DNA of 55,581 bases from a virus (lineage: Duplodnaviria > Caudoviricetes): positions 1 to 55,581 of IMG/VR virus record IMGVR_UViG_3300030419_003947; one strand, 5' to 3'. The notes beneath the pieces are model-generated. The model did no database searches. It saw nothing but the letters and a program-made list of their open reading frames with translations, and was not told the origin of the DNA. The position numbers and the translations under genes are program-made. Positions within the stretch are counted from its first letter, which is position 1; every line of letters starts with the position of its first letter. This document shows, piece after piece, positions 755 through 51,958 of this stretch.

Positions 755-3146
755 CGTTGATATCTCCTGTCGGGATATAAAATTCTGCATCCGCACGGGC
801 AAAACTTGTTGCACTTGTAGCGTTTCCCAATAACCACCATCTTCCATCACTTGACTTCCACCATCCCAATGAAAATACCGTTGGACTGCCAGAGCTTGCT
901 ACTGTTACTCTCATGGCGGCCCCAACGTGCATGTCAAGAGGGTAAGATAGACCAGAGGACGCTGGAGTTTCCCACGCAGGGGCAACGCCAGCACCACCAG
1001 AGGTTAGAACTTGTCCATCAGATCCGTAGTTAGCTCCACCTACTCCAAGTTCACCTTGGCTGGTAAACCTAAACTTCTCCGTAGCTGCTTCAGAGTGACC
1101 AGTATAGAATATCAAGTCAGTAGCATTTACTGAAGCAGTAAACGTATCTTGTGCTATCGCCTTGATAGCGGCAGCTATTGCCCTTGCATCAGTATCTTGA
1201 GCTTCCAAGGGTGCTTGAAACTCTATCTGCCCAAGGACGTCATTCGCTGCTACGGCTGTCTGTGCGGTAGCAAGTAGAAGCTTTCCAGAGCTACCAGTGG
1301 CATCAGCAGACGGACCTAATATTCGCAACTGATCGGCACTCTCATCCCACTCCATGTAGGCACCGGGAGAGTCACCAAAAAACTTTACGTCCTTCCCCGT
1401 GCCATCCACGCCAACGGTAACCGTTCCAGTAAAAGTTTTATCGCCAGTGAACGTCTGCGAACCACTAAGATGCGCCGTATCAGAATCAAGGTATGCCGAA
1501 GCTATTACGTCACCCTGCCACGTTCCGGTTCCAATAGTTCCTACGGTAACAAGATTTGCACAAACTGTTATTGCAGCTTGTGTCCCACCCGTTACTGTTG
1601 CAGCAGTACCAGAGGCGTTGCCCGTCACATTGCCCGTAAGAACCATTCCACTTTCAAGCGTTATACCGCCATCATTAATATTGCCAATATTTGTTTCATC
1701 AACATAAAAGCTCATCTTGCCATGATTGGCAGTGCCGCTAGCGGTTTTAGTAGTAAATCGAAGTTCTTCCAGAGTCTTATCGCTGCCACCATTGAGAGCT
1801 TGAATGACCAATGCTTCTGTTGCAGATGTTCCAATACTCAGTGATGTGTCTGCATTATTGTTATCATCAAATATTGTTAGATCGCCAGCGGTAACGACAA
1901 CCGTTCCAGTACCTGCATTTAAAGTGAGGTTGTTGTTCCCACTTGTGTCTATAGTAGCAGCAGCGTCAAAACTCAAGGTAGAAGCATCAGACTCTATTGT
2001 CCCGCCATCTAGCGTCAATACAGCACTTCCAGCATCCAAGGACAAAGCATTATTGCCACTGGTGTCTATGGTAGATGCGGCATCAAAGCTTAGTGTAGTG
2101 GCCTTAACTGCTAAGGCTTGCCCACTGTCACCGATAGAATCTGTATAAACATTTGACCATCGAACGCTGGTAGTCCCAAGGTCATCCGTGCTATCAGTAT
2201 CAGAAACAATATTTGCTCCGCTCTGGATACCCCCGGTATGAACGCTTTGTGCTGTGAAAGTACCTACCCCAACTACAGCCAGCGTGCTATCAAGCTTTAC
2301 TGCGCCATCGTCCACCCACAAAGAATAATTGCTTCCTCCCTCAGTGGGGGCATTTTTAACATATAGCGTGGCAGCATTAGTTACAGTGCCTGTTGCCGTA
2401 ATATTAGGCTCTTCTATGGCAACGCTGGCAACTAAGGCTGTAGTCCCAGAGGGAATCGTTTGCGCCCCGCCAGCGGTCACATGTAAGGCATACGTATCAT
2501 TGGTTGCAGTGTGAGAAGCAGCAGGAGGGCTTATCGTAACAAATTTATCATCTGCCCCAGCGGCACCGAAGGCAAAGGTGTCCAATCCAGCATCTACGAC
2601 AAAGCCATTCGCAATATTATTTGTCTCTATCCGAAAGTCTATATCGGCAGATCCATCATTGAATACAACCCTACCTGCCCCATCTGCCGGGGTTCCCGCT
2701 ACCATAAACTCAGCAGCAGACCCTGCGACTAAAGCCTTAAGCTTTATCTCTGAATCTTCATCGCCATTATCGGTGTCTGTCATAATGACTTCCAGCTCAC
2801 CGATTGTTGCTACATTCCCCTCATCGTCATCGGCATTAAATAAAAGCTCTACCCCATCTCCATCAGCAGGAGTTCCAGAAGCGGGGTCTATAGAAAAGAT
2901 GGCAGCAGTTCGCACTCCCCCTGCGGCAGCAGACGTATTCTCAAAGGTCTTCAAGCCCGTTATTGTTTGAGCCTGTCCCATGACTACTATACCATCAGAG
3001 TTGGTATAGTCTACGTTGTTTTCATCAATATTATTGCCTTCTACAAAAGTTCGTAGATTGGTTATCCATCCATTAAGAGGTGCAGCAATAATATCGCCAC
3101 CAGCAACTGGAAGCGTAGATGTAGTTGGAACAGTTACAGTAGCCAT
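738..3146 (-). CDS. Tail fibre protein (802 aa)
   Basis: Thr/Ala/Gly/Asp-rich with fibre-type motifs (QTITGLKTF, GSQTFTGDKTFTG, GSDGQVLTSGG); follows the nozzle gene. Confidence 0.75.
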   Translation of the reverse strand: MATVTVPTTSTLPVAGGDIIAAPLNGWITNLRTFVEGNNIDENNVDYTNSDGIVVMGQAQTITGLKTFENTSAAAGGVRTAAIFSIDPASGTPADGDGVELLFNADDDEGNVATIGELEVIMTDTDNGDEDSEIKLKALVAGSAAEFMVAGTPADGAGRVVFNDGSADIDFRIETNNIANGFVVDAGLDTFAFGAAGADDKFVTISPPAASHTATNDTYALHVTAGGAQTIPSGTTALVASVAIEEPNITATGTVTNAATLYVKNAPTEGGSNYSLWVDDGAVKLDSTLAVVGVGTFTAQSVHTGGIQSGANIVSDTDSTDDLGTTSVRWSNVYTDSIGDSGQALAVKATTLSFDAASTIDTSGNNALSLDAGSAVLTLDGGTIESDASTLSFDAAATIDTSGNNNLTLNAGTGTVVVTAGDLTIFDDNNNADTSLSIGTSATEALVIQALNGGSDKTLEELRFTTKTASGTANHGKMSFYVDETNIGNINDGGITLESGMVLTGNVTGNASGTAATVTGGTQAAITVCANLVTVGTIGTGTWQGDVIASAYLDSDTAHLSGSQTFTGDKTFTGTVTVGVDGTGKDVKFFGDSPGAYMEWDESADQLRILGPSADATGSSGKLLLATAQTAVAANDVLGQIEFQAPLEAQDTDARAIAAAIKAIAQDTFTASVNATDLIFYTGHSEAATEKFRFTSQGELGVGGANYGSDGQVLTSGGAGVAPAWETPASSGLSYPLDMHVGAAMRVTVASSGSPTVFSLGWWKSSDGRWWLLGNATSATSFARADAEFYIPTGDINDVPSS

Positions 3147-3154
3147 ATCTATCC

Positions 3155-4735
3155 TTATGCTGCTGTGTTAGCGGTGGTATCGTCTACGGTATACCATATT
3201 TGATATCCGACCAGACTTACAGTTGAAGATCCAGTTATTCTAAACCCAGCGGTCAATGCCGTTCTGTTGCATCCCCACATCTTTCTATCGTTACCACCAC
3301 CGGGATAGCGCAATGCAGTATCGTATTGATGTCCTTCGTCATACTGAAGATCAGTTCCAAGCTCCATAACTTTTGTTCTTGAACCACGAATGCCTTCATC
3401 TCGTATGAGCTGAAGCGTTATTGATTGAGGACCATCTCCTACATCTCTATAAAAGAGGACTACATTATGTATGGTTTTTTCTACGCCGGGAAATCCTAAA
3501 TCATTAGGAGCTGTCTCTATTTCCCACTGAATGGCAGTGCCATCATCATCTGTTCCAGTGTTCGACTTATACATATAGCCACTGCTATATCCACCCAATA
3601 AATCGTATTCTATTCCACTATCAAAATAATGACTAATATAGCTAAGTTTCGTTGTTTCATGCTTGTCTATGGATATATCCCCATTCTCCCAATCCCACGA
3701 CAAGATCAGATCATGTCCCGTAGTATTTGCTGAAGATGACATCAGCACACGAACTTGATGCTCTTTCTCTCTAATAGAGGAAACAGCATACTGAAGACGG
3801 TTCATATTAAAGGTATCTTGAAAATCTATATCCTTGGTTACAATGGAAAACTTGCCCTCTGGCGTTATTACATATCCACCTTCTCTGGCAATGCCAAAGA
3901 TAAATTCGGGCCTTGCAACCATAGACGTTTTAGATACTGGATGAAACCCTCTCAGGTTTCCAACTTCTTCATCTGGAACATATTCAATGTATCCAGAATT
4001 ATATTCCAATCTACCGGGGTATATGCCATCTGTCTTAGCTATCCACAGCTTGCCCCAATTGTCTACTCCTCCAACGATAGGCGCACTGTTTTCGCCACCA
4101 ATCTCATACCGACTATTTGATGGATAGCGAGTAATATCTCCTGTAAAGTCCTTCGTATTCACATCTGACCAAATAATGCGAGTAAGCTTTTTGCTTGAAG
4201 AAATCGTCGGCACTAAAACTACTAAGGCATTGTTATGCTCTATAAGTTGCTCTGCTGCTGTAAATGCTGTCGAATCCGAGGCAAACGTAAAAGCCACAGC
4301 ATTGCCCGTCCCTGCCCACTTAAAGCAATTGTCTTTTCCATTAGTTCCAACTATAGTGTCTTGAACAAAGTCGAGTGTAAAATATTCATCGTTGCTACCC
4401 GACAGAGACACGCTGCTTGTTATGTCAGACCTAGTAGACCCATCATCCGTATAGATCTTATCGGGAGTGCAAAATAGTCTTTTTGCTCCATGCGAAGCAA
4501 AGGTTTCTTCAATAAAGCCCATCATTGGCTCTGATGATGGGATTACAGTAGTATTGTACTTTTCATAGCCATTTCTGGACGCGGCTAGATTTTTCTCTGA
4601 GAAATTAATATTGGATATAACAATACAATTTTCTGGAGAAAGATCTGGATGAGGATACACCAAACGATCTTTTAGTCCTCTCAATCTATAAATAGGACTC
4701 TTTTCAAGAGAGGTTTTATTTAGAGGTTGAGCCAT
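3155..4735 (-). CDS. Putative tail nozzle / tail stabilisation protein (526 aa)
   Basis: Size, beta-rich sequence and position between adaptor and fibre, as in podoviruses. Confidence 0.6.
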   Translation of the reverse strand: MAQPLNKTSLEKSPIYRLRGLKDRLVYPHPDLSPENCIVISNINFSEKNLAASRNGYEKYNTTVIPSSEPMMGFIEETFASHGAKRLFCTPDKIYTDDGSTRSDITSSVSLSGSNDEYFTLDFVQDTIVGTNGKDNCFKWAGTGNAVAFTFASDSTAFTAAEQLIEHNNALVVLVPTISSSKKLTRIIWSDVNTKDFTGDITRYPSNSRYEIGGENSAPIVGGVDNWGKLWIAKTDGIYPGRLEYNSGYIEYVPDEEVGNLRGFHPVSKTSMVARPEFIFGIAREGGYVITPEGKFSIVTKDIDFQDTFNMNRLQYAVSSIREKEHQVRVLMSSSANTTGHDLILSWDWENGDISIDKHETTKLSYISHYFDSGIEYDLLGGYSSGYMYKSNTGTDDDGTAIQWEIETAPNDLGFPGVEKTIHNVVLFYRDVGDGPQSITLQLIRDEGIRGSRTKVMELGTDLQYDEGHQYDTALRYPGGGNDRKMWGCNRTALTAGFRITGSSTVSLVGYQIWYTVDDTTANTAA

Positions 4736-5730
4736 TAAGAATTACTCGCATTGGGTATTTTCTCGCCACTACCACGGGAGATATATCTATTAGAGACATT
4801 CCTAAACGATCTTGAGCGAACTCCCTTGTGCTGCTTCCTGCCTAAATATGCTTCTTTTCTTACTTGATACTTTTGTCGTGCTGCTGCCGATGCAGACTCC
4901 TTACCCTTCCCGGCCAACAATATTGCCTCTGGGCCAAGCACTAAAAGGTCATGGTATTCTTCTGGAATTTCGGGCCAATCGTCATCATTTATAAGCGGTG
5001 GCTTTTGGGCCAAGCATCGCACGACATAGGTCATTGCCGTATCTGGGGTGTAATCAAACTCCCACCATTGATACGAAGGCGATTTACCCCAATAAGGAGG
5101 AATAACGGCCAAGGTGTTATCAGAAACATCTTTGACGGTTACGTATCCAGAAAACTCAGCACTACTGGCGTTAGAGAGAACGAGTCTTCGTATCCCTATT
5201 CCATTAGAGACAGCATCAAAGCTAGCAGAAGATTCAACTTCAGTTGTTCCATTCATCTCAATGGACTCTCTAATATCTACACCGGAAGACATCCCATTGA
5301 CAATGATGTTGAAGTTACCACCAGAGACATCTGAGGTGGATGATGAAACTACAGATATCTTACCTGCGGATGCTGGTTGTTTCTGAACTCCATACTCACC
5401 AAACCAATAGGCGTTGAGTGGAGTGCCAGACTCTGAAAGACCCGCACGATTACGGTCAAATTCGTGCGGACCTCTCAGAGGGATAGACCTATCATTTGTG
5501 TCATCTTCAATGTTTAAAACCTGAGACACATATATGGGCATTCCATATTTAGAAATGCCAGAGACAGTGGTAAGCGTAAACTCTCGCCTTTCTAAGTCAC
5601 TGTCTCCCTCTGCGAGGATCTCTCTGTAAGTAAAGTTAATCTCTCGCTTCGCCATCACTTGAAAGTCATCGCCATCCTCTTCGGAAGCGATAAGATTCAA
5701 GTGACTATATAGGTCTTTGAATGTAGGCAT
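4735..5730 (-). CDS. Putative head-tail adaptor protein (331 aa)
   Basis: C-terminal D.D.PEIPEEYHDLLVLG motif seen in phage adaptor proteins; gene position. Confidence 0.65.
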   Translation of the reverse strand: MPTFKDLYSHLNLIASEEDGDDFQVMAKREINFTYREILAEGDSDLERREFTLTTVSGISKYGMPIYVSQVLNIEDDTNDRSIPLRGPHEFDRNRAGLSESGTPLNAYWFGEYGVQKQPASAGKISVVSSSTSDVSGGNFNIIVNGMSSGVDIRESIEMNGTTEVESSASFDAVSNGIGIRRLVLSNASSAEFSGYVTVKDVSDNTLAVIPPYWGKSPSYQWWEFDYTPDTAMTYVVRCLAQKPPLINDDDWPEIPEEYHDLLVLGPEAILLAGKGKESASAAARQKYQVRKEAYLGRKQHKGVRSRSFRNVSNRYISRGSGEKIPNASNS

Positions 5731-5737
5731 TCGTTAT

Positions 5738-6589
5738 TTACTTCTTCTTAGATTTAGAATTGCTTTTAGGTTTTGCCGCTTCCATTTCTTCTACGGCTTT
5801 TTCTTCCTGCGCCAGCATCGCCTCTTCTTCAGCCAATTCTTCTTTGGTCAGTGGCTCTGGATTGTCTGGAGCATCCATGTCAATCCAAGCTTTCATCTGC
5901 TCTGGGGAATTGCTTTTAAGCATTTCCTGCATCACCGATTGAGCATCTACCACTTCGCCATTTTTAACAGCTACCTTCGATGGATCATTTGGAACTACGC
6001 CCGTTTCGTCTAAGCGATTCATAAGCTTACCGAAAAACTGTTCCATAGAACTAAACATTTCGGCTTGCTCCATGTTCTTCTGTCGTTCATACGTTTCTGC
6101 AAGCTTGCGCCTTGCCTCTGGCCCATTGGTCAGCTTAACCCAGCCAAGACGAAAGCACCACTCCGTATAACGAGGAAGCTGAACATCCATTGTTTCTTCC
6201 AGAAGTTCTGCTTCATCTTCTTTAATTACTCTGCCATTATTCATATCTATGGCAACGGTAGATTCGGGAGTGCCAACAAAGCGCATAATCAACCCATCGT
6301 CTTCCGATACACCAACGATATCGTCATCCATTAACCGATCTTCCATCCCCAATATGGCAACCTTGGGATGTGCCACTAGAGTCGTTTCCCACTCCTTGTG
6401 TGCAGTATCAGACAGGTCGGGAGATTGTGCTTCATATTTGCGGTAAACAATCTTTGCCTTATCAGACTTAGACAGAGGAAGAGGAACACCATCGTCTAAA
6501 CTGGCACGACCAGCACGGACCTCTTCTTCCAGTTCTTTTGTCAACGTGTTATCAATACTGACAGTGGGCTTAGTTGAGGGACTCAGCAT
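5738..6589 (-). CDS. Hypothetical acidic protein (283 aa)
   Basis: Long ORF with AGGAG RBS in the late operon. Confidence 0.75.
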   Translation of the reverse strand: MLSPSTKPTVSIDNTLTKELEEEVRAGRASLDDGVPLPLSKSDKAKIVYRKYEAQSPDLSDTAHKEWETTLVAHPKVAILGMEDRLMDDDIVGVSEDDGLIMRFVGTPESTVAIDMNNGRVIKEDEAELLEETMDVQLPRYTEWCFRLGWVKLTNGPEARRKLAETYERQKNMEQAEMFSSMEQFFGKLMNRLDETGVVPNDPSKVAVKNGEVVDAQSVMQEMLKSNSPEQMKAWIDMDAPDNPEPLTKEELAEEEAMLAQEEKAVEEMEAAKPKSNSKSKKK

Positions 6590-6600
6590 GATACGCTCCT

Positions 6601-6900
6601 TTAGTGTCCACTAATGGTAATTTGGCAATCTGCGCTAGAAGAAGCGATTGCCCCTTCTGCCTTATTGCCCATCCGACATGCCAGACTTAGTCCAGCAAAA
6701 TGAAATGACGTTCCTTCGATGCTGACATCTATCTTACTTTCCCATACGATGGTCGTTCCATCTTTTACGGTAATTACAGAGTCAGCATCTACATGTCCAG
6801 AGACTGCGGTGACAACATAAAACCTATTGCCTTCCGCTGCCTTGGTGGCGGTAGCACCCGAATTTGTTCCCGCCTTAGTTGCGCTCCAAAATGAATCCAT
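6601..6900 (-). CDS. Small beta-rich putative virion protein (99 aa)
   Basis: GGAG RBS, operon context, beta-strand pattern. Confidence 0.6.
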   Translation of the reverse strand: MDSFWSATKAGTNSGATATKAAEGNRFYVVTAVSGHVDADSVITVKDGTTIVWESKIDVSIEGTSFHFAGLSLACRMGNKAEGAIASSSADCQITISGH

Positions 6901-6916
6901 CTTGATCTCCGTTTAT

Positions 6917-6982
6917 AAAAAGAGGTGGACCGATAAGACCCTCAAGGAATAAGAGTTAAGCCCAAACTTACCAGCCCACCCC
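6917..6982 (-). terminator. Intrinsic terminator with an unusually large 29-nt loop
   Basis: Minus-strand RNA GGGGUGGGCUGGUAAG / CUUAUCGGUCCACCUC (16 bp with G-U pairs, so strand-specific) followed by UUUUU, just after the glycosyltransferase cassette. Confidence 0.75.
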
Positions 6983-6986
6983 AACT

Positions 6987-7898
6987 CTATGCAGCCACAT
7001 TGAAATCATCCAAAATGCGTTGCATCCGTTTGTGATACGTATGTCCCGACCTAACTTTTTCATGTCCTGCTTGGGCTATTTTTTCTCGCTCTATAGGATT
7101 ATCCAAATAATACTGGCTCTTGTTAACAAGATCCTCCTTGGTTTCATATCCTATGAAATGAGTGCCATCTTCAAATCCAAGATCATCGATGCCTTCGACA
7201 TTGGTATTGGTAAGAAGACATGTTCCTGTCGATAATATCTCAAAGAAGCGCATATTCAAATCATTGCGAATACTAATATTGAACCCCAGCCTTCCCCGAA
7301 TAATACGCACTGCCATGTCTTCAAAAAAGCATTGCCATGCCAGCCATGAGTTGGGGAAATGCTTAAAGGCATAATCTAGCCACTCTATTCTATTATTAGA
7401 TTCACTGGTGCCATCCCCTTCATTGAGGAATCCAACAAACGACAGATCATATTGCTTGTCCAATCCCTTTCCCCAAGTATGGTCATCTTTGTTCTTATGA
7501 ACCATCATCTCAGATAGATTAGGATGTGCCATTGGATTACATGCCAGCGGCAACCAGTATGCTTCTTTAATGCCATCTTTCTTCATCTTTACTACACCCT
7601 CTTTTTGGGCGCAGTAAACTTTATCAAATTGCCGTGCTTTCCACAGCCTGTAATCATATCCCAAATGGGTATCTATAGCCCAATATGCAGATGGGCCGGG
7701 ACATTCCCAAGTCAAATCATCCCTGCCGTCATCTACATAAATATACAACTCTCTTTCGGGAATACTGCCCTCTGGCCGCCACCTATCAACTTTATCGCCC
7801 CAGCCTAGCTGATGCTTTACTGAGTTAAAGGCCAAGGTAGCAGTGCCGTTATTGCGAATATCGCTATTGTAAACAAAGGAAACTCTTGAATCGCTCAT
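6987..7898 (-). CDS. Glycosyltransferase, CgeB/Glyco_trans_1_2-like (GT-B)
   Basis: YDLSFVG, FNISIRNDLNMRFFEILSTG, REKIAQAGHEKV...HTY..R motifs. Start moved to the ATG at 7898, which gives an ATGA overlap with the upstream stop. Confidence 0.85.
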   Translation of the reverse strand: MSDSRVSFVYNSDIRNNGTATLAFNSVKHQLGWGDKVDRWRPEGSIPERELYIYVDDGRDDLTWECPGPSAYWAIDTHLGYDYRLWKARQFDKVYCAQKEGVVKMKKDGIKEAYWLPLACNPMAHPNLSEMMVHKNKDDHTWGKGLDKQYDLSFVGFLNEGDGTSESNNRIEWLDYAFKHFPNSWLAWQCFFEDMAVRIIRGRLGFNISIRNDLNMRFFEILSTGTCLLTNTNVEGIDDLGFEDGTHFIGYETKEDLVNKSQYYLDNPIEREKIAQAGHEKVRSGHTYHKRMQRILDDFNVAA

Positions 7899-9172
7899 GC
7901 CGACACCTCTTCTGTTTTTAGTGTCCGACACTTCAAGGCAATTGTCCCGTGTATGTTTTCAACCAACTCTTCTACCCAAAAGTCCTGTGACTCTAGCAGG
8001 GCTTTTGCCGAATCGGGCGTGTACGCATGGACATGGGTATAGTCTATGAGCATTGTGGGCAAATACTCATGGTTTGGCATAGTCAGCAGTAGTGTTCCAG
8101 CAGGACGCAATACTCGCTTCCACTCTGTCAGAGCCTTATATGGATCGACTAAATGCTCCAAGAGATGAGGTGCCATTATATAGTCGATACTATTATTCTG
8201 AACAGGCAAATCGGAAGCATCAGCAGTAGTATCTGGATCTGCCTCTTCATATTTACGTCCTCCAGCCCCTCTTTCCCCAGCTTTGGCACTGTCAATGCCA
8301 ATAGCCTCGTAGTCATCCCCCTTATGCCCACACCCCAAATTAAGACCCTTCTTGCCTTCAAGAGACTCAAGGTGGGCATTCAACCATTCTTCTTCTCGTA
8401 ATCCATTGTCGATGCGCTCGGTGCCAGATCCGTAGGGTTGCCACCCCATCTGGAAGCACCGATACCACTTCTTTACCCCATGCTTACGTATGATCGCATT
8501 GTTGGTAGCTTCTTGGTGCTGCTTTGAATCCCAATAATTTTGATGAACTCTTTGTCCCGTCTGCTGACCTATATGATGTAGGTAGGCAGATCTATCTGCG
8601 ACCAAGGCAAATCCTTCGTCTTGGATTCTAATGGATGAATCCAAGTCATCGCCCCCCGGCAATGACTCATCTAATCCACCAATCTTTTTAAGCAAGTCCG
8701 TACGGACAACCATACAGAAACCTATAAGTAGGCTTGTTTCTAGTTCAACGGGAAGATTGATGTTGAATAGATTCTGATTGCCAGAAACGAAGTTTGAACA
8801 AGGACCAACTGCTCCTACTTCTGGCCGATTAAAATGACGAATCAGAGTGCGCCAAAACTCATTGGACTTTGGCGGGAACACCACATCATCATTCATCATG
8901 CAGAAGTAGGGGGTATCGGTCTTGGATAGGCCAATATTAATTGCACCCATCCATTTCATGTTGCTTCCCGGCTGAATGACCTCAATATTATCCACTTCAA
9001 TAGACTTGATCATAGCACAGATATTGTCTTGCGACTCCATGCTTGGGTCATTATTTATGATCATTATACTAAGTGGATACTCTGTATTTGCTACAAGAGA
9101 GTAGAGACACCACTGCAATTGCTGGTAGTTCTGATAGGTGGGAATACAGACTGTAAGAAGGGGTCTGGTCAT
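7895..9172 (-). CDS. GT2 glycosyltransferase fused to a class I SAM-dependent methyltransferase (425 aa)
   Basis: N-terminal LTVCIPTY, MMNDDV, LIGFCMVVR, GGLDE..GGDDLD; C-terminal LNLGCG, HLLEHL, EWKRVLRPAG. Confidence 0.88.
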   Translation of the reverse strand: MTRPLLTVCIPTYQNYQQLQWCLYSLVANTEYPLSIMIINNDPSMESQDNICAMIKSIEVDNIEVIQPGSNMKWMGAINIGLSKTDTPYFCMMNDDVVFPPKSNEFWRTLIRHFNRPEVGAVGPCSNFVSGNQNLFNINLPVELETSLLIGFCMVVRTDLLKKIGGLDESLPGGDDLDSSIRIQDEGFALVADRSAYLHHIGQQTGQRVHQNYWDSKQHQEATNNAIIRKHGVKKWYRCFQMGWQPYGSGTERIDNGLREEEWLNAHLESLEGKKGLNLGCGHKGDDYEAIGIDSAKAGERGAGGRKYEEADPDTTADASDLPVQNNSIDYIMAPHLLEHLVDPYKALTEWKRVLRPAGTLLLTMPNHEYLPTMLIDYTHVHAYTPDSAKALLESQDFWVEELVENIHGTIALKCRTLKTEEVSA

Positions 9173-10017
9173 GCGACTGCCTCCTTTTTTAGTCCATTGC
9201 CCATTAGGTTCTCAAATACTTGAGGATTGAGTTCTCTAAACGCCTCATAGTATTCTTCGCTAATCCAATCTTCTCCCCACTTCTTATGGCGAGTCTTGGT
9301 CGAGGTATCGACGTATCGTTGGATTCCATATTGGTGGCATTTGGTGCAAAAGAAGAAGTCTTCTCCTGCCCCGGTTGACTCAAACCAAGGCTGTGGCATC
9401 TGGCGAAATACATTCATATCGCACATGAAAACGCCAGTGCCAAATGCTAGCGAACCTCCCACATCAGCATTAGTGATTAGCTTGTCTTTTGGATAGTCCA
9501 AGACAAACTCACTGCTCATCATCGGCTTTCCAGACGTAGAATCTACAGATTCCTTGATCGTCATTATCACCGGATTGTATGGCTCTCTTGCTGTAAACGC
9601 CAGTGCTGCCACTACAGGAACTTGGTGCCGCCAAAGTCTGAGGAAAAGACTATGATCAAACATCATATCGTCATCCCACATGAGACAATAATCGGCATCC
9701 CATGCCAATGACGATTCGATAATCATCTCCCTCGCTTTTCCCGGCAACGAGCAGCGAGTATAATCTAGGAGTCCTAACTCCAAGACTCCCATCTTATCCA
9801 AATCTTCTTTGGTTGGCTCTGCGCCTAATTCTTCTGGACTATCGGGCGATAGCTTTGGCAAGCTATGCGTCATCATTTGCTCACCAATGGCATTATACAT
9901 GATCGTTCTTTGCCGTAGCTCACCCAAATACGTCATAAAGTCCATGAACCGAGCAAAACATGCGGTATCTGGACCATTATACCAAGGCATACCTATGACT
10001 AGTCTCATTTTATCCAC
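9169..10017 (-). CDS. GT-A fold (GT2-like) glycosyltransferase (282 aa)
   Basis: DxD motif LMWDDDM, GTGVFMC, GEDFFFC. Confidence 0.82.
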   Translation of the reverse strand: MDKMRLVIGMPWYNGPDTACFARFMDFMTYLGELRQRTIMYNAIGEQMMTHSLPKLSPDSPEELGAEPTKEDLDKMGVLELGLLDYTRCSLPGKAREMIIESSLAWDADYCLMWDDDMMFDHSLFLRLWRHQVPVVAALAFTAREPYNPVIMTIKESVDSTSGKPMMSSEFVLDYPKDKLITNADVGGSLAFGTGVFMCDMNVFRQMPQPWFESTGAGEDFFFCTKCHQYGIQRYVDTSTKTRHKKWGEDWISEEYYEAFRELNPQVFENLMGNGLKKEAVA

Positions 10018-10208
10018 CCCACTTTCATCTTAAAAAATTCCCAAGGGGAGGCATTCATAGCCATAGTATGCTTGTGTCCTACATGCTTCTTCTTCACCTC
10101 AGAAGGTGAATCGCTCCAGAACAATTCATTGCACTGGCAGCGATACAACCTTCTGGATGAAGTCGATGGGTCATGGGGCTTAAGGCATGACCTAATCTTG
10201 TTAAACAT
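10005..10208 (-). CDS. Small Cys/His protein (67 aa) leading the GT cassette
   Basis: AAGGAG RBS; CQC...H..H; overlaps the next gene start. Confidence 0.6.
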   Translation of the reverse strand: MFNKIRSCLKPHDPSTSSRRLYRCQCNELFWSDSPSEVKKKHVGHKHTMAMNASPWEFFKMKVGWIK

Positions 10209-10240
10209 AATTACTCCTTGAGGGTTTTATTTGGGCTTAT

Positions 10241-10711
10241 TTACAGGGCGCGAAGGAATACGTGGTCGGCATAGTTAATGCTACCCAGCGAGTGCAGAGT
10301 AGCGGTAACCGTGTCCAGAGCCACAACCGGACCCAAGAGTCCCTGCGTTGCGCCCGTCGAGCTAAGGCCCACAGACGCTCCTTGATTACCCGGCCCCAAG
10401 GGATGACCGGGAATAACCGTAACCGAACCAACAATGCGATAGATCAACGCCGATTCATGGTATCCATAAACCTGCACTTCACCAACGTCATTATTCGGAA
10501 TGTCCTCATTCGCCAGACCAATAAAACTGCCTTCGCCATTCAAGCAAGAATTGCTTTCCTGTGCAGCTTCATTCGATCCAACCGAAGAAGTATTCTTGTT
10601 GTTGGTCATCAGATACACCGGATAGTGCGTGGTGATCGTCTTACCATCAACATTCGTAATATTCACCCAGACCCTTTCGGCATCAGAGCGATTAACCTGT
10701 TGAATTTGCAT
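10241..10711 (-). CDS. Putative capsid decoration/cement protein (156 aa)
   Basis: Downstream of the capsid gene; FIGLANEDI....GEVQVYG pattern of cement-like proteins. Confidence 0.6.
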   Translation of the reverse strand: MQIQQVNRSDAERVWVNITNVDGKTITTHYPVYLMTNNKNTSSVGSNEAAQESNSCLNGEGSFIGLANEDIPNNDVGEVQVYGYHESALIYRIVGSVTVIPGHPLGPGNQGASVGLSSTGATQGLLGPVVALDTVTATLHSLGSINYADHVFLRAL

Positions 10712-10723
10712 TTTTAGCCTCTC

Positions 10724-11011
10724 CTAAAATGCGCCTAGGACGTGTGCGGTAAAGGTATACGTTCCACTGTCAGCAGTAGTCGATACCCGAACACTTCCGT
10801 TGGTAGACGTACCACCAGTTGAAGTATTTAGCACTACCTGTGGGGTAGCGGCATCTTCAGCCGGGGTGGAAATGCTGCAAGAGTATACATACCCTGTCTC
10901 TGGAACTAATACGATGTGACTATCGTCCTGCTCTCCAGTAAAAGAACCCGTCATAACAACGTGTTCTCCTACAGGCGAGATGGTATCAATAGTCGTAGTA
11001 AGTGCTGCCAT
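10724..11011 (-). CDS. Putative minor capsid protein (95 aa)
   Basis: AGGAG RBS, Thr-rich beta protein directly after the capsid gene. Confidence 0.55.
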   Translation of the reverse strand: MAALTTTIDTISPVGEHVVMTGSFTGEQDDSHIVLVPETGYVYSCSISTPAEDAATPQVVLNTSTGGTSTNGSVRVSTTADSGTYTFTAHVLGAF

Positions 11012-11027
11012 GACAGTCTCCTACCTA

Positions 11028-12023
11028 TTAAGAGATGCCAGCCAATACACCAAGCTTGCGCCTGTTGTTGACTGCCAAGTTGCCTTGGAAAAGAATCTGG
11101 GCAACGAGGGCATCTTGATCGATGGGCTTCTGGAAGCCTTCATCAGTCATAGCAAAATTGGCCTTGCCATGAATGAACATCATAATATGGGCAGAGTTAA
11201 GCATGTACATTACGCCGCTGGTGCAGTAGTCATCCCAAACAACTTCTGCGCCTTTGAACTTCAGCGTATCAATGCCAGCATCGGCACCACCAGAAGGATT
11301 CTGCTCATAACGAACGCGAGGCGAGATCAATGCCTCCAAAGCTTCATGTACCGTCTGAGTGGTAACGATGAAGTCAGGAGTCGAAGCAACGCCTTCCGAA
11401 CCACGCGAACAGCTATTGTAAACCGTGCGCATGTTGGAAACGAGGTTAGAAGCAGCGGCACCTACACTAGCTACCGCACGATTGCGCCATGCCGTATTAT
11501 CGGCGGGATCAATCGAAGCATAGGTAGTAGTAGCAGGAGTCTGATCAACGGCAGCAGTCAAGCCCGTAAGCTGCTTGCTACCAGAGCCAGTGCCATCACT
11601 GAAAATACCAGTAGCAACGCCATCACCCAGAGAAAGCTCGGCTTGCCGAATCTTTTCCTGCATGATGTCATTGATCTGGGCCGGACCTTGGTTAGAGCGC
11701 AACGTCAAGCCGTCAATGGCAAGACCAACTGCACCCTGCTTCCACGTATACCACGCCGTAGTCTGACCGATGGAAGGAGTAATACTAAGGGTATCCAAAC
11801 CAGAATACCACTTGAAAGTATTATTTTTCCCGGTCATAACCGGAATGCGGATACGCTCACCACCTTGAAGAACCTTGATACGATTGCCAGACTTGAACCA
11901 AGACAGCGTCTTAGCCATATCATAGATATTATCTTGAATGGCACCAGACGAGAGGATCTCATCCAACGTCATCGTAAGCAAGGGTCCATATGTGCGACTT
12001 AGGGTCGATTCTCCCGTAGCCAT
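11028..12023 (-). CDS. Major capsid protein (331 aa)
   Basis: GGERIRIPV, DGTGSGSKQLTGL, TPDFIVTT, LKFKGAEVVWD, GNLAVNNRR motifs; follows the scaffold gene. Confidence 0.9.
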   Translation of the reverse strand: MATGESTLSRTYGPLLTMTLDEILSSGAIQDNIYDMAKTLSWFKSGNRIKVLQGGERIRIPVMTGKNNTFKWYSGLDTLSITPSIGQTTAWYTWKQGAVGLAIDGLTLRSNQGPAQINDIMQEKIRQAELSLGDGVATGIFSDGTGSGSKQLTGLTAAVDQTPATTTYASIDPADNTAWRNRAVASVGAAASNLVSNMRTVYNSCSRGSEGVASTPDFIVTTQTVHEALEALISPRVRYEQNPSGGADAGIDTLKFKGAEVVWDDYCTSGVMYMLNSAHIMMFIHGKANFAMTDEGFQKPIDQDALVAQILFQGNLAVNNRRKLGVLAGIS

Positions 12024-12051
12024 AATGGAATTGCTCCCGTTCTAATGGTTG

Positions 12052-12954
12052 TTAAGTGTTAAAAGTCTTCCACGACTTGAGGACTGCTTTCGATACAATA
12101 TCGCTTAAGTCATCATCCTCTTGTCGCAAAGATGGTTCCTGCGCTGGAGCATTAGAGGATCGGTTGTGAGAGCTAGAAGCTCGCGCAACCCTCTGCGCCC
12201 TGCTGCCATTGCCACCTTCAGAAAGACCCCTGTCATACTCGGCTTGCATCAGCTTGTCGTAATTGTAAAGGATGTAAAGTTGATTGGGCGTAATGCCTTC
12301 CTCTGGTGAACGCATAGACTTGAAAAGGTCACGAACTCCTTCATATATGTCTTGGTTCCAAACAAACTTGTCACCATCCATATGTCCGAAGTCGTCGCCC
12401 CACTTGTCTACACCTTCCGTGATTGCGCCCATAGTCATTTCCATAGATCGCTTATCACGTTCTTCAGCATCCAATTCATCTTTGGATACAAGGCCAAGCT
12501 CTTCTACGTATGCGTCAAACATTTCACGCTGCTGCTTGGGCATACGCTGTAACATTTGCTGCCGACGAGCCTCTGCGGGGTCGGGCTTTTCCGGTCCTTT
12601 AGCCGCATCTTCCAACTTAGCAAGACGCTGCTCAAGTTCCTTATTAGCATTTCCCTGCTGGCTTATTGTTCTTTGAAACTGTTTTACCAGTTCGGCTCCA
12701 CCGGGAAGAGCGTCAGCATTCTTTTCCAGATAGTCCAGCAACTCTTGTCGACTAGGAGTTTTCTCCGCACCATTTGAATTGTCTGAGAGTCCGTTGCCGG
12801 GATCAGATGTATTCGATGCGTTACCATTGCCGGGGGAAGCGCCATTCCCCTTTGCCGCCACTACGGAGTCAATAGCTTCTTTGTTCATGGCAGATTGAAG
12901 CTGCTCAAGCTCATCAGAAGCACTGGACGTATTGGCAGACGTAATTTCAGTCAT
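12052..12954 (-). CDS. Putative capsid scaffolding protein (300 aa)
   Basis: Acidic, coiled-coil, low-complexity N-terminus, directly upstream of the capsid gene. Confidence 0.7.
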   Translation of the reverse strand: MTEITSANTSSASDELEQLQSAMNKEAIDSVVAAKGNGASPGNGNASNTSDPGNGLSDNSNGAEKTPSRQELLDYLEKNADALPGGAELVKQFQRTISQQGNANKELEQRLAKLEDAAKGPEKPDPAEARRQQMLQRMPKQQREMFDAYVEELGLVSKDELDAEERDKRSMEMTMGAITEGVDKWGDDFGHMDGDKFVWNQDIYEGVRDLFKSMRSPEEGITPNQLYILYNYDKLMQAEYDRGLSEGGNGSRAQRVARASSSHNRSSNAPAQEPSLRQEDDDLSDIVSKAVLKSWKTFNT

Positions 12955-12973
12955 TTTCTATTCTCCTTGAGGG

Positions 12974-13432
12974 CTACTTTATGCTGGGCAAGTCAGACAC
13001 ACGTTTAACTTCGTCTACAGATTTGCCGTCTTTATTTTCTGTTCCTACGACAAAGTTATATTTGTCTTCCTCTCTTTTTTCTTCTTCTCTACGATGATCA
13101 TCTAAGCTTCGTCCCGAAAGTCGATCTATGGGCTTAATGCTTTCGGGTGCCTTGTCATCGTAATTTCTTGCTCCACGAACCTTATCACCCGCTTCAATAA
13201 CATTAAGAGCCTTCATAACTTGCTCCTTATGCCTACGACCATGAATGTCCATATCTAAGGACTCATCGTAATAGGACTCAAAGGGCTGAAAGCCTTTAAT
13301 AGCAGTTACGGGGAACTGCAAAGCGGCATCGCCACCACATTGGCATTTGATAGTTTTCTTTTTGTCTTCAAGCGAAACAACGACTTCTTTGGTCGTATTG
13401 CACGTTTCGCATGTGTAATCATATAAAGGCAT
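12974..13432 (-). CDS. FmdB-type zinc-ribbon protein (152 aa)
   Basis: MPLYDYTCETC...CQCGG. Confidence 0.8.
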   Translation of the reverse strand: MPLYDYTCETCNTTKEVVVSLEDKKKTIKCQCGGDAALQFPVTAIKGFQPFESYYDESLDMDIHGRRHKEQVMKALNVIEAGDKVRGARNYDDKAPESIKPIDRLSGRSLDDHRREEEKREEDKYNFVVGTENKDGKSVDEVKRVSDLPSIK

Positions 13433-13436
13433 TGGA

Positions 13437-13913
13437 TTATCCTATAGGAAGAACCAAGGCACTCATGTCGTTGTCAGCAGATTGCTGCGGCGAAGGTCCA
13501 CCACCGAATCCCGCACGTTCTGCTGCTTTATCCCCACCGGGAAGGATACCCGTCTTTTCCATTTTCTGCAAAAGGCGAGGCATCACCTGTAGCTCTTCCA
13601 TCGTAAATTCATTAAGCAAGTCAGCAGGAATGCCAAAATTCTTTGTGATCTTTGCCTGTGCTGCATCCTTCGCTGCTCTGGACTGATCGGCAGTATCCAT
13701 TCCCTGTGGTTTAGGAGTGCCAGCAGGAGCCTGTCGTGAAGGTGCTGCCATAGGCTTGCGTCTGCCAGCAGGGGCTTTAGGCATTGGCCTAGCCGCTCTG
13801 GGAGCTTGCTTCGCTGCGGGAGCAGCGGCGGGTCGCCCAGCAGGACGGGCAGCGGGAGCAGCGGGAGCAGCTTGCCCCCGTGCGGGAACCTGTACTCTAC
13901 GACCTTGTGCCAT
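13437..13913 (-). CDS. Ala/Pro/Arg-rich low-complexity protein (158 aa)
   Basis: In-operon ORF with start overlapping the upstream stop; basic disordered N-terminus. Confidence 0.7.
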   Translation of the reverse strand: MAQGRRVQVPARGQAAPAAPAARPAGRPAAAPAAKQAPRAARPMPKAPAGRRKPMAAPSRQAPAGTPKPQGMDTADQSRAAKDAAQAKITKNFGIPADLLNEFTMEELQVMPRLLQKMEKTGILPGGDKAAERAGFGGGPSPQQSADNDMSALVLPIG

Positions 13914-36631: not shown

Positions 36632-37184
36632 GTGTAGCATGGGTCGCAAACCTAAATGGACTGAGAAGGATCTAAAGAAGCTTCAGAAGAAGCAGTCCAA
36701 GAATGCCCGTAAGCACTCTCGCACTAGGCGTAAGGTGGCTACTGTAGCAGGAGAGACAGTAGCCCCTAACGCCAGAGGGGTTTATGCTGGAAGGCGCAAA
36801 GATGTACAGGACAGCAGAACCGACAAGCGTCATCCAGATGGTTTGTATTTGCGATCCAGATGGGAAGCTAACTATGCCCGATACCTTATGTGGCTTGAGT
36901 CGAGGGGAGAAATACAACGCTGGGAATATGAACCGGACACCTTTTGGTTTGAAGGAATCAAAAGAGGAGTTCGATCTTATCTCCCCGATTTCAAAATATG
37001 GAAAACCGCAGACTCAGAGCCATACTACGTAGAGGTAAAAGGAAACATGGACAGCAAGTCTGCTACAAAGCTAAAGAGAATGGCCAAGTATCATCCCGAC
37101 ATCTCTTTAGAATTGTGTGATGCCCATGTTTATAATACTATCCGACTGACCTTTGGGAAGATGATTCCCAATTGGGAGGTCTAA
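36624..37184 (+). CDS. PD-(D/E)XK endonuclease (resolvase-like)
   Basis: RSRWEAN, WEYEP, YLPDF, VEVKG. Confidence 0.85.
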   Translation: MGKCSMGRKPKWTEKDLKKLQKKQSKNARKHSRTRRKVATVAGETVAPNARGVYAGRRKDVQDSRTDKRHPDGLYLRSRWEANYARYLMWLESRGEIQRWEYEPDTFWFEGIKRGVRSYLPDFKIWKTADSEPYYVEVKGNMDSKSATKLKRMAKYHPDISLELCDAHVYNTIRLTFGKMIPNWEV

Positions 37185-37192
37185 TAAATAAT

Positions 37193-37277
37193 TGATGGGC
37201 TTTGAGGTTTGGCATCGACTTACATTAAAACCAATCATCATCCTGCATGTCTTCGATGGCATCCTCAAAGCCCATCA
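37193..37277. terminator. Inverted repeat at the convergence of the early and late arms
   Basis: TGATGGGCTTTGAGG (37193-37207) / CCTCAAAGCCCATCA (37263-37277), plus inner CATCGA/TCGATG. Confidence 0.6.
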
Positions 37278-51693: not shown

Positions 51694-51724
51694 GGCACTC
51701 TCTCCTTGAGGGTTTTGTAATGGG

Positions 51725-51958
51725 CTATGCTACGTTTTTCTGAAAAAATTGTTTTACCATATTTATAACTGTGGTCAATCCAGCGACTACATACGGTACA
51801 AGGTCAGGTGCTGATAAAGCAGTAGGCATATAGCCGAGGTCGCTAATAACAGAGTAAGCCACAGCGCCCACTCCACCTACTGCTGCGCCCTTCGCAGTTT
51901 TTGCAGTTTCTTTCTTGCCGAATCCAACTTGGATATTCTCTTTAATTTTGTCAATCAT
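51725..51958 (-). CDS. Holin-like 2-TM protein (77 aa)
   Basis: Two hydrophobic segments and basic termini. Confidence 0.55.
   Translation of the reverse strand: MIDKIKENIQVGFGKKETAKTAKGAAVGGVGAVAYSVISDLGYMPTALSAPDLVPYVVAGLTTVINMVKQFFQKNVA

What the first reader, a model, noticed from the sequence alone, without database searches (positions are those of the whole stretch)
6917..10240. Bipartite late-gene RBS motif whose complement sits in a terminator loop bracketing the glycosyltransferase cassette
On the late mRNA, GCCCA-N7-11-CCCUCAAGGAG precedes three start codons: the GT cassette leader (10214-10236), the scaffold (12963-12989) and the gene leading the ejection cluster (51702-51725). 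The 29-nt loop of the terminator at 6917-6982 contains UUUGGGCUUA and UCCUUGAGGGU. These are perfect 10- and 11-nt complements of the two halves of the 10214 site, in an order that gives a long-range pseudoknot or double kiss across 3.3 kb. A further partner, CCCUCAACUAAGCCCA, lies ~340 nt downstream of the terminator (6565-6580). Inference: long-range RNA pairing couples RBS occlusion with termination or readthrough to set capsid versus tail stoichiometry. Alternatively it is a protein-binding late motif.
Basis: partly seen in the sequence, partly recalled or inferred. Interest (0 to 1): 0.75.

Follow-up and report, generated by a model that had tools for sequence, protein, structure and literature searches.

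The report
Anti-ribosome-site hairpin behind phage sugar-transferase genes
In an uncultured marine phage, a folded RNA element just after four linked sugar-transferase genes carries the mirror image of the ribosome landing site 3.3 kb upstream at the start of those genes, and the two sites have changed together in related phages, so they very probably pair to hold down translation, though no RNA data exist.

Summary
The hairpin at 6917-6982 (- strand) holds exact complements of 10230-10239 and 10215-10225. The second match extends to 20 nt with one mismatch, covering the Shine-Dalgarno (SD) sequence and spacer of the 67-aa ORF that leads the glycosyltransferase (GT) cassette.

The cassette genes are joined by three ATGA overlaps, so this one ribosome binding site (RBS) probably feeds all four.

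I compared 11 distinct site pairs from viral and metagenome contigs. All keep 11-17 contiguous pairs, although both partners differ between clades:
- the C-run/G-run length is 3, 4 or 5-6;
- double compensatory changes occur at several positions;
- loop nucleotides track the spacer.

The hairpin itself has covarying stems and folds far better on the late-mRNA strand.

What is not conserved:
- the GCCCA half-site at the other RBSs;
- the U-run, since one clade has no terminator tail.

The same hairpin also matches the translation start of the downstream 283-aa gene, and the tagged RBSs of the scaffold and ejection genes.

Best reading (0.55): an anti-RBS RNA element that occludes the leader SD and throttles the cassette. 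This is a new variant of the known long-distance anti-SD interactions (icaR, hok/aapA) and of the P1 c4 antisense RNA. No RNA data exist; cis versus trans action and the link to termination remain open.

The parts
10211..10230 (-). Leader translation-initiation region of the GT cassette: A-rich stretch, C-run, TCAAGGAG (SD AAGGAG at 10214-10219) and spacer. It is the 20-nt partner of the hairpin's 3' half.
   Evidence: 18 WC + 1 GU + 1 A.C against 6933-6952. The start codon is at 10206-10208.
10230..10239 (-). Upstream half-site TAAGCCCAAA, the exact complement of the hairpin bulge at 6957-6966.
   Evidence: It varies in relatives (6 variants). All 10 positions stay paired (WC or GU) in 5 of the 6 type-A pairs that have both sites. 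It is absent in type B and L068.
10005..10208 (-). 67-aa leader ORF of the cassette, Cys/His-rich, with no family hit.
   Evidence: It is 53-82% identical in relatives. Its stop overlaps the GT1 start as ATGA.
9169..10008 (-). GT1 (putative glycosyltransferase, no Pfam hit). Its ATG at 10006-10008 overlaps the leader ORF stop.
7895..9172 (-). GT2: family-2 glycosyltransferase fused to a methyltransferase domain. ATGA overlap with GT1.
   Evidence: PF00535 5e-14, PF08241 4e-11.
6987..7898 (-). GT3 (Glyco_trans_1_2). Its probable ATG at 7896-7898 overlaps the GT2 stop as ATGA.
   Evidence: PF13524 9e-23. Relatives align from residue about 15.
6917..6982 (-). Compound hairpin with a U-run, an intrinsic-terminator-like element on the late mRNA. 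Layout: 14-16 bp outer stem, 10-nt bulge, inner stem, UUCCU apical loop.
   Evidence: -34.2 kcal/mol, z -2.5; 4 pairs with double compensatory change in 8 sequences.: -34.2 on the late strand against -11.8 on the complement.
6957..6966 (-). Bulge TTTGGGCTTA, invariant in all 8 distinct type-A hairpins.
6933..6952 (-). Anti-RBS segment: apical loop, inner 3' arm and the first 5 nt of the outer 3' arm. Complementary to 10211-10230.
12963..12973 (-). The same C-run + TCAAGGAG tag at the RBS of the 300-aa gene just upstream of the major capsid protein gene. Its scaffold role is assumed from position.
   Evidence: The tag is kept in relatives, with the C-run length matching that genome's hairpin.
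51702..51712 (-). The same tag at the RBS of the 137-aa gene that precedes the 1831-, 698- and 2134-aa proteins.
   Evidence: Also present in G001.
6565..6580 (-). CCCTCAACTAAGCCCA, codons 4-9 of the 283-aa gene. It is colinear (non-crossed) with the complement of the two hairpin elements: 7 + 8 bp.
   Evidence: The CCCTCAA half varies among type-A relatives. AAGCCC (Lys-Pro) is kept in 7 of 8.

Best explanation
The hairpin between GT3 and the 99-aa gene is a structured RNA element of the late transcript that carries an anti-RBS segment. This segment base-pairs with the translation-initiation region of the 67-aa leader ORF, 3.3 kb upstream on the same message, and may also pair with copies on other messages. 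The pairing covers the SD and most of the spacer.

The leader ORF, GT1, GT2 and GT3 are chained by ATGA stop/start overlaps. Closing this one RBS should therefore lower translation of the whole enzyme cassette, which sits inside a strongly expressed structural operon. The duplex could also serve as an RNase III substrate.

Exposed single-stranded parts of the hairpin are the likely nucleation points:
- in the window's clade, the 10-nt bulge and the UUCCU loop;
- in the sister clade, the G-run internal loop and the apical loop.

In the window's clade the same hairpin also looks like an intrinsic terminator.

Shown: the complementarity, its co-variation, hairpin structure and strand specificity, and the overlapping cassette genes.
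Inferred: that the pairing forms in vivo, that it represses, and that it acts in cis.
For: 1. Extent in the window. 20 nt pair with 1 mismatch, plus a separate exact 10-nt match.

2. Conservation of the pairing. In 11 distinct RBS/hairpin pairs the longest contiguous helix is 11-17 bp, although the sequences differ. Offset 0 is the T of TCAAG. Several offsets carry more than one Watson-Crick pair type:
- offset +5: GC x8, AU x3
- offset +8: UA, AU, CG
- offset +9: AU, CG, GC
- offset -4: AU x6, CG x4

3. Loop tracks spacer. Apical-loop nucleotides that no local stem constrains follow the spacer: L006 UCGG with CCGA, L009 GA with UC, L071 UCACU with AGUGA, L068 UUG with CAA.

4. Three-way change in type B. 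The local stem arm, the anti-RBS arm and the leader RBS all switch together between L009 and L006.

5. Cognate versus shuffled partners. 126 of 176 variable cells pair, against 106.5 +/- 4.9 for shuffled partners; 0 of 20000 permutations reach the observed value. Cognate duplex energy averages -28.5 against -22.3 kcal/mol, and the cognate partner is best in its row in 7 of 11.

6. Genome-wide ranking. In RNAduplex scans of four genomes the tagged RBSs rank at the top: 1 and 2 (window); 1, 3, 6 (G001); 2, 3, 4 (G002); 1, 2, 3 (G003).

7. The hairpin is an RNA structure on the late strand. Sense versus antisense folding is -34 against -12 kcal/mol in the window, and sense is better in all 18 rows. 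The stems covary.

8. Thermodynamics. Cofolding lowers the energy in 9 of 10 informative pairs (ddG -5 to -20 kcal/mol); in 7 of these 9 the minimum-energy cofold contains the RBS:anti-RBS duplex.

9. Coupling. There are three ATGA junctions, and the overlaps are kept in type B.

10. Alternative design in relatives. Type C relatives lack the hairpin and the tag. In 2 of the 3 examined (L030, L087) a terminator-like hairpin with a T-run sits in front of the cassette, and L033 has a hairpin there. This fits a need to damp the cassette.
Against: - No RNA evidence of any kind. No RNA run holds the sequence, so co-transcription, 3' ends and cleavage are unknown.
- The 11 pairs come from about 4-5 independent lineages, so the permutation figure overstates independence.
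- 3.3 kb of translated mRNA lies between the partners, and ribosomes would load before the hairpin is even made.
- In the window the two helices are in crossed order and the target must invade a stable hairpin (-34 kcal/mol). For L009 and L068 the cofold minimum-energy structure does not choose the duplex.
- The same hairpin is also complementary to other RBSs (scaffold, ejection lead, 283-aa gene), so the cassette may not be the only or the main target. In L068 the 283-aa gene start is the better match.
- Differences between the partners are not exclusively G-U: all type-A pairs keep an A.C at offset -5.
Confidence: 0.55

Rival explanations
1. Trans-acting hub. The hairpin is released by termination and/or processing as a small RNA derived from the 3' end of the cassette message. 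It acts mainly in trans on every late RBS that carries the C-run + UCAAGGAG tag: scaffold, cassette leader, the 283-aa gene or the ejection lead gene. In this way it sets the relative output of the late modules.
For: - The C-run length is the same in all tagged RBSs of a genome and equals the hairpin's G-run: 3 in the window and G001, 4 in G002, 5-6 against 5 in G003.
- Tagged RBSs are the top-ranked targets genome-wide.
- Type B puts the tag on the 283-aa-gene homologue in 5 of 5.
- L068 pairs 15 + 9 bp with that gene's start.
- The two genomes without the hairpin have no tag on the late strand.
- Type-A hairpins have a U-tail, like 3'-derived sRNAs (recalled analogy).
Against: - In every genome the leader site is the longest match (15-20 nt, against an 11-13 nt core for the others), and only its spacer covaries.
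- Type-B hairpins have no U-run.
- No promoter is called above background.
- No RNA data exist.
Confidence: 0.2
2. Termination/readthrough switch. Pairing of the free leader RBS with the hairpin's 3' half remodels the terminator. Ribosome occupancy of the cassette leader then decides how much transcription continues into the tail genes.
For: - The window's pairing includes 5 nt of the outer 3' arm.
- In the cofold the 5' half refolds into another hairpin.
- A U-run follows the stem in the window and in G001.
Against: - Type B keeps the complementarity without a U-run.
- In several type-A relatives the tail is weak.
- The bottom 9 bp of the stem next to the U-run stay free to form.
- The decision window is sub-second, while the partner is 3.3 kb away.
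Confidence: 0.1
3. No present function. The anti-RBS segment is a leftover of an inverted duplication of an RBS-bearing segment, kept because the local hairpin (needed as a terminator or stabiliser) happens to be built from it.
For: In type B the inner stem is literally an SD-dead copy of the RBS paired with its complement.
Against: - Positions outside any local stem (apical loop, G-run internal loop) follow the distant RBS.
- The local stem changes in step with the RBS across clades.
- The two loop elements are invariant in 8 type-A hairpins while the flanking stems vary.
Confidence: 0.1
4. DNA-level feature. The two sites are inverted repeats recognised as double-stranded DNA, either as ends of a mobile or invertible cassette or as binding sites of a late regulator.
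For: - A 3.3-kb gene block is flanked by 15-20 bp inverted repeats.
- Sites within a genome evolve in concert.
Against: - The cassette holds no recombinase or transposase domain.
- The cassette sits at the same place, in the same orientation as both flanks, in all 21 loci that span it (these scripts read + strand hits only, and every gene was found there).
- The cassette is also present in relatives without the repeats (type C).
- Contigs of 4 DNA runs show no strand-changing joint.
- The hairpin is strongly strand-asymmetric.
- In the window the two half-sites are each inverted but not in inverted order.
- Differences inside the SD complement are U opposite G in 3 of 3 lineages.
Confidence: 0.05

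Closest known systems
icaR mRNA 5'-3' UTR interaction of Staphylococcus aureus (PMC3868564, abstract read)
   Same: A pyrimidine-rich anti-SD motif downstream of the coding region pairs with the SD of the same message. It blocks initiation and creates an RNase III substrate.
   Different: icaR is one gene with a 7-nt motif. Here 15-20 nt pair across four translationally coupled genes (3.3 kb) inside a polycistronic phage late operon. The anti-SD sits in a compound hairpin that can double as a terminator, and no experiment exists.
Long-distance 5'-3' interaction of type I toxin mRNAs (hok; aapA/IsoA of Helicobacter) (PMC6733600, passages read)
   Same: An anti-SD encoded far downstream sequesters the SD once the 3' end has been made. 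The same paper raises the question of how translation is held off before the 3' end exists, which applies here too.
   Different: Those messages are short, monocistronic and activated by 3' trimming. Here the loop spans 3.3 kb of genes that must still be translated to some degree.
c4 antisense RNA of phages P1/P7 (PMC8198154, passages read; the details of two complementary segments and the heteroimmunity covariation are recalled)
   Same: A phage-encoded structured RNA, made from the same operon as its target, pairs through exposed segments with an RBS. Through translational coupling it silences the downstream genes.
   Different: c4 lies upstream of its target and is a processed ~77-nt RNA of the immunity region. 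There is no Rfam match here. This element lies downstream of its target and belongs to late structural genes.
hbs mRNA 5'/3'-UTR interaction of B. subtilis (PMC5737220, listing and start of abstract only)
   Same: The 5' and 3' ends of one message interact, linking translation to message fate.
   Different: It concerns mRNA stability of a single gene; SD occlusion is not its main point.
Long-range RNA interactions of RNA phages (Qbeta; PMC2978339, listing and start of abstract only; MS2 recalled)
   Same: Structure at one RBS of a polycistronic phage RNA affects initiation more than 1 kb away.
   Different: Those are genomic RNAs of ssRNA phages, not the mRNA of a dsDNA phage.

Membership tests
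Long-distance anti-SD / 5'-3' mRNA interaction (icaR, hok/aapA type) | A segment complementary to the SD lies downstream of the coding region, on the same strand. | tested here: met
   6933-6952 against 10211-10230, both on the - strand. SD AAGGAG is fully covered.
Long-distance anti-SD / 5'-3' mRNA interaction (icaR, hok/aapA type) | The pairing is conserved through co-variation in relatives. | tested here: met
   11 distinct pairs with helices of 11-17 bp. Several offsets carry 2-3 Watson-Crick pair types. 0 of 20000 partner permutations reach the observed pairing, though the lineages are few.
Long-distance anti-SD / 5'-3' mRNA interaction (icaR, hok/aapA type) | Both sites lie on one transcript, and pairing lowers translation or triggers cleavage. 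| not testable with these tools
   No RNA run holds the stretch. Terminator-like sites between the two partners are no more frequent than in shuffles.
Intrinsic (Rho-independent) terminator | A GC-rich stem-loop on the transcribed strand. | tested here: met
   a 16-pair outer helix, 98.8% of cells paired, 4 pairs with double changes.
Intrinsic (Rho-independent) terminator | A U-run directly after the stem, conserved in relatives. | tested here: inconclusive
   The window and G001 have UCUUUUU. Other type-A tails have 3-5 U with interruptions. Type B has no U-run.
C4 antisense RNA family (Rfam; P1/P7 c4, P4 CI) | A match to the family covariance model. | tested here: not met
   No Rfam family reaches threshold in the window. 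At E<=10 on 6700-7200 the only match is a chance-level one to rli24 (13.8 bits against a gathering score of 100).
Invertible or transposable DNA cassette | A recombinase or transposase in or beside the segment, and alternative orientations or empty sites in the population. | tested here: not met
   only GT and methyltransferase domains; the same orientation in all 21 spanning loci; no strand-changing joint in contigs of 4 runs.

The most novel reading that the evidence does not exclude
One structured RNA in the late operon acts as a hub. It co-evolves with a C-run 'address tag' placed on the SD of the first gene of each late module (head scaffold, glycosylation cassette, tail/adaptor or ejection module). 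By pairing with these sites, most tightly with the enzyme cassette, it sets module stoichiometry after transcription. In the window's clade it is also wired to a terminator. This would be a phage-encoded anti-RBS regulon of a kind not described for dsDNA phage late genes.
Probability: 0.25. Interest if true: 0.85.

Novelty: new variant of a known kind. Interest (0 to 1): 0.7.

Why it matters
How tailed phages set very different protein outputs from one long late transcript is usually explained by RBS strength, terminators and RNase III sites next to the genes.

Here an enzyme cassette embedded between capsid and tail genes appears to be throttled by a partner sequence placed 3.3 kb away, behind the cassette. 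The evidence is co-variation across a clade of abundant, uncultured marine phages.

If confirmed, three things would follow:
- long-distance anti-SD control, so far shown for single short messages, would extend to a multi-gene, translationally coupled block;
- there would be a natural 'address tag plus anti-tag' design for tuning modules in polycistronic messages;
- there would be a sequence signature (an RBS tag plus its complement in a nearby hairpin) that can be searched for in other phage genomes.

Tried and rejected
- Close named relatives. Megablast of 6400-10400 against the phage collection found nothing. By MCP protein the nearest named phages are under 60% identical, so all comparisons rest on uncultured contigs.
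- RNA evidence. No RNA holder is listed for 6500-10400, so there is no expression, 3'-end or cleavage evidence. Laying contigs of 4 DNA runs gave only strain variants; none of the 40 best-supported differences shown lies in the hairpin or the leader site, but 122 differences were not shown.
- Known RNA genes. Rfam gave no family and there are no tRNAs.
- Promoters and terminators. Promoter- and terminator-like matches in 5500-13500 are no more frequent than in shuffles, so a separate sRNA promoter cannot be claimed.
- Bipartite motif. I rejected GCCCA-N7-11 as a conserved part of the motif.
- Local leader hairpin. I rejected a local hairpin in the leader: the leader alone folds at only -1.6 kcal/mol.
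- Alternative pairing of the bulge. Pairing of the bulge with the outer 5' arm does not covary.
- Phage RNA polymerase promoter. There is no RNAP domain in the six large proteins tested, and nothing upstream of the tag is conserved between sites.
- Alignment tools. The long-range pair counts therefore come from my own scripts reading stored loci.
- First genome scan. The first RNAduplex genome scan timed out and was rerun with coarser steps.
- Earlier scan notes. There are none for this genome or this sequence.
- Literature. Searches listed no paper whose title or abstract start describes such an element in a dsDNA phage late operon. Only the held library was searched, and supplements were not seen.


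Full report
**What the window is.** The window is a complete 55.6-kb viral record. Its structural (late) genes are on the - strand.
- By major capsid protein (MCP) it is only distantly related to named phages (under 60% identity).
- It has uncultured relatives in marine viral and metagenome contigs and in marine DNA runs.
- The region of the finding reads, on the late strand: 156-aa gene, 32-nt gap, 67-aa ORF, three glycosyltransferase (GT) genes, hairpin, 99-aa gene, 283-aa gene, then an SU10-adaptor-like gene. One GT gene is fused to a methyltransferase domain.

**Check of the observation.**
- CCCTCAAGGAG occurs exactly three times, always on the late strand and 5-8 nt before an ATG.
- The hairpin at 6917-6982 contains exact complements of 10230-10239 and 10215-10225, in crossed order.
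- Three details change. First, the interior of the hairpin is predicted to fold further: a 7-bp inner stem leaves a 10-nt bulge and a UUCCU loop. Second, the second match is really 20 nt long with one A.C mismatch and one G-U. It reaches from the A-rich stretch before the C-run to the spacer after the Shine-Dalgarno (SD) sequence, and into the 3' arm of the outer stem. Third, the ATG belongs to a 67-aa ORF.
- The four cassette genes are linked by ATGA stop/start overlaps. The leader ribosome binding site (RBS) is therefore the natural entry point for the whole cassette.

**Relatives.** Scans with the MCP and with alignments of GT3 and GT2 gave contigs in three architectures.
- *Type A* (the window, G001/L005, L022, L023, L061, L062, L071, L078). 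The hairpin has a U-rich tail. The two interior elements are invariant in all 8 distinct sequences, while the outer stem shows compensatory changes.
- *Type B* (L006, L009, L026, L027, L070; MCP about 85% identical). A three-tier hairpin with no U-run has covarying stems. Its inner 3' arm plus a G-run internal loop and the apical loop are complementary to that phage's own leader RBS.
- *L068* is intermediate between types A and B.
- *Type C* (L030-L033, L087). There is no hairpin after GT3 and no tag. L030 and L087 have a terminator-like hairpin with a T-run in front of the cassette; L033 has a hairpin there.

**Co-variation.** I anchored all 11 distinct leader/hairpin pairs on the invariant core. 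Every pair keeps a contiguous helix of 11-17 bp.
- The C-run of the RBS and the G-run of the hairpin are 3/3 in type A, 4/4 in L026 and 6/5 in L006, L009 and L027.
- Offset 0 is the T of TCAAG. Offset +5 is G-C in eight pairs and A-U in three. Offsets +8 and +9 each show three different Watson-Crick pair types. Offset -4 is A-U or C-G.
- Apical-loop nucleotides, which no local stem constrains, follow the spacer after the SD: UCGG/CCGA, GA/UC, UCACU/AGUGA, UUG/CAA.
- In type B the local 5' arm is an SD-dead copy of the RBS. Local arm, anti-RBS arm and distant RBS all switch together between L009 and L006.
- Cognate partners pair in 126 of 176 variable cells, against 106.5 +/- 4.9 for shuffled partners (0 of 20000 permutations). 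They also give better duplex energies: -28.5 against -22.3 kcal/mol, best in row in 7 of 11.
- These numbers overstate independence, because only about 4-5 lineages are involved.

**RNA level or DNA level.**
- The hairpins fold much better on the late strand than on its complement in all 18 rows examined; type A gives about -30 against -12 to -22 kcal/mol. This is because of the G-U pairs.
- Inside the SD complement, the three lineage-specific differences all put U opposite G.
- The cassette carries no recombinase.
- The cassette has the same orientation as its flanks in all 21 spanning loci. It is also present in relatives that lack the repeats. Contigs of four DNA runs show no inversion joint.
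- I therefore place the relationship at the RNA level.

**Other partners.**
- The same tag sits on the scaffold RBS in all clades. It sits on the ejection-lead RBS in type A and on the RBS of the 283-aa-gene homologue in type B (5 of 5).
- The C-run length matches the hairpin's G-run within each genome.
- In whole-genome duplex scans these RBSs are the top-ranked targets of the hairpin interior.
- The two complete relatives without the hairpin have no tag on the late strand.
Its order is colinear with the hairpin, so it would give a simple bulged duplex. However, the CCCTCAA half varies among type-A relatives, and AAGCCC encodes a conserved Lys-Pro.
- In L068 the hairpin pairs 15 bp with that gene's SD and 9 bp with codons 5-8, including a U-A to C-G swap relative to type A. 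In the same phage the GCCCA-type element has no partner at the leader.
- So the bulge may be aimed at the downstream gene as much as at the leader.

**The GCCCA half-site.** It is exact in the window, but the RBS-side copy is the most variable part of the intergenic region (six variants). Five of six type-A pairs keep all ten positions paired. The partner is G/U-rich, however, so most transitions are tolerated, and this is weak evidence. At the other two tagged RBSs the GCCCA is either coding sequence or is lost in G001.

**Mechanism.**
- The leader alone is unstructured (-1.6 kcal/mol).
- Cofolding leader and hairpin lowers the energy in 9 of 10 informative cases (ddG -5 to -20 kcal/mol), and in 7 of these 9 the minimum-energy structure contains the RBS:anti-RBS duplex.
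- I therefore read the element as an anti-RBS that closes the cassette's entry site once the 3' end of the cassette has been transcribed. That would give a limited burst of enzyme synthesis from an abundant structural message. The duplex may also be cut by RNase III.
- This is inference. Repression, cis action and cleavage are not shown.
- A trans-acting hub, a terminator switch, a functionless relic and a DNA-level repeat are kept as rivals, with decreasing weight.

**Comparison with known systems.**
- It works like the icaR 5'-3' UTR interaction (PMC3868564) and the long-distance anti-SD lock of type I toxin messages (PMC6733600). In its phage context and its use of translational coupling it works like P1 c4 (PMC8198154).
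- It is not a member of any Rfam family.
- It differs in spanning a four-gene coupled cassette, in lying inside a late structural operon, in being built into a compound hairpin that in one clade is also terminator-like, and in sharing its target tag with other module-leading RBSs.
- Earlier notes of this scan on other genomes describe anti-SD hairpins and self-locking messages in phages. They are unchecked leads and were not used as evidence.

**Verdict.** The feature is real and co-evolving. The mechanism is plausible but unproven. It is a new variant of a known kind.

Noticed in passing
window 37184-37292: A long inverted repeat at the convergent end of the 2134-aa late gene and the + strand genes. 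Its 14-nt arms are GATGGGCTTTGAGG and CCTCAAAGCCCATC. The type-A hairpin covariance model hits it at 26 bits. The arms combine GGGCTT and TGAGG, the same short words as the two hairpin elements. It is possibly the terminator of the late operon.
   Followed up: partly
L016 11820-11835 and 13795-13810; L017 about 4470-4485: In the 58-59% MCP clade the palindrome TATAAACGTTTATAA precedes the RBS of both the first gene after the 156-aa-gene homologue (L016 and L017) and the 283-aa-gene homologue (L016). In type B these are the two positions that carry the C-run tag. It may be a different device at the same control points.
   Followed up: no
L030 about 3100-3150; L087 2865-2900; L033 about 3160-3200: Type C relatives lack the downstream hairpin. 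L030 and L087 have a terminator-like GC-rich hairpin with a T-run between the 156-aa gene and the GT cassette. L033 has a hairpin there without an adjacent T-run.
   Followed up: partly
L006 12487-12555 and the type-B homologues: The type-B hairpin has a symmetric UGAU/UGAU internal loop in 4 of 5 sequences, between the outer and middle stems. It could form tandem G.A pairs and might be a protein-binding motif.
   Followed up: no
window 7331-8869: Contigs of two DNA runs join 7331 to 8869, skipping 1537 bases inside GT3/GT2. This suggests a population variant with a shortened or replaced cassette.
   Followed up: no
window 10005-10208: The 67-aa leader ORF is conserved (53-82% identity) and Cys/His-rich but matches no Pfam or PHROG family. 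It is probably a real small protein rather than a mere leader peptide.
   Followed up: no
L009 7823-8143: The 85%-MCP clade carries a second, diverged copy (37% identity) of the 99-aa gene upstream of the head genes.
   Followed up: no
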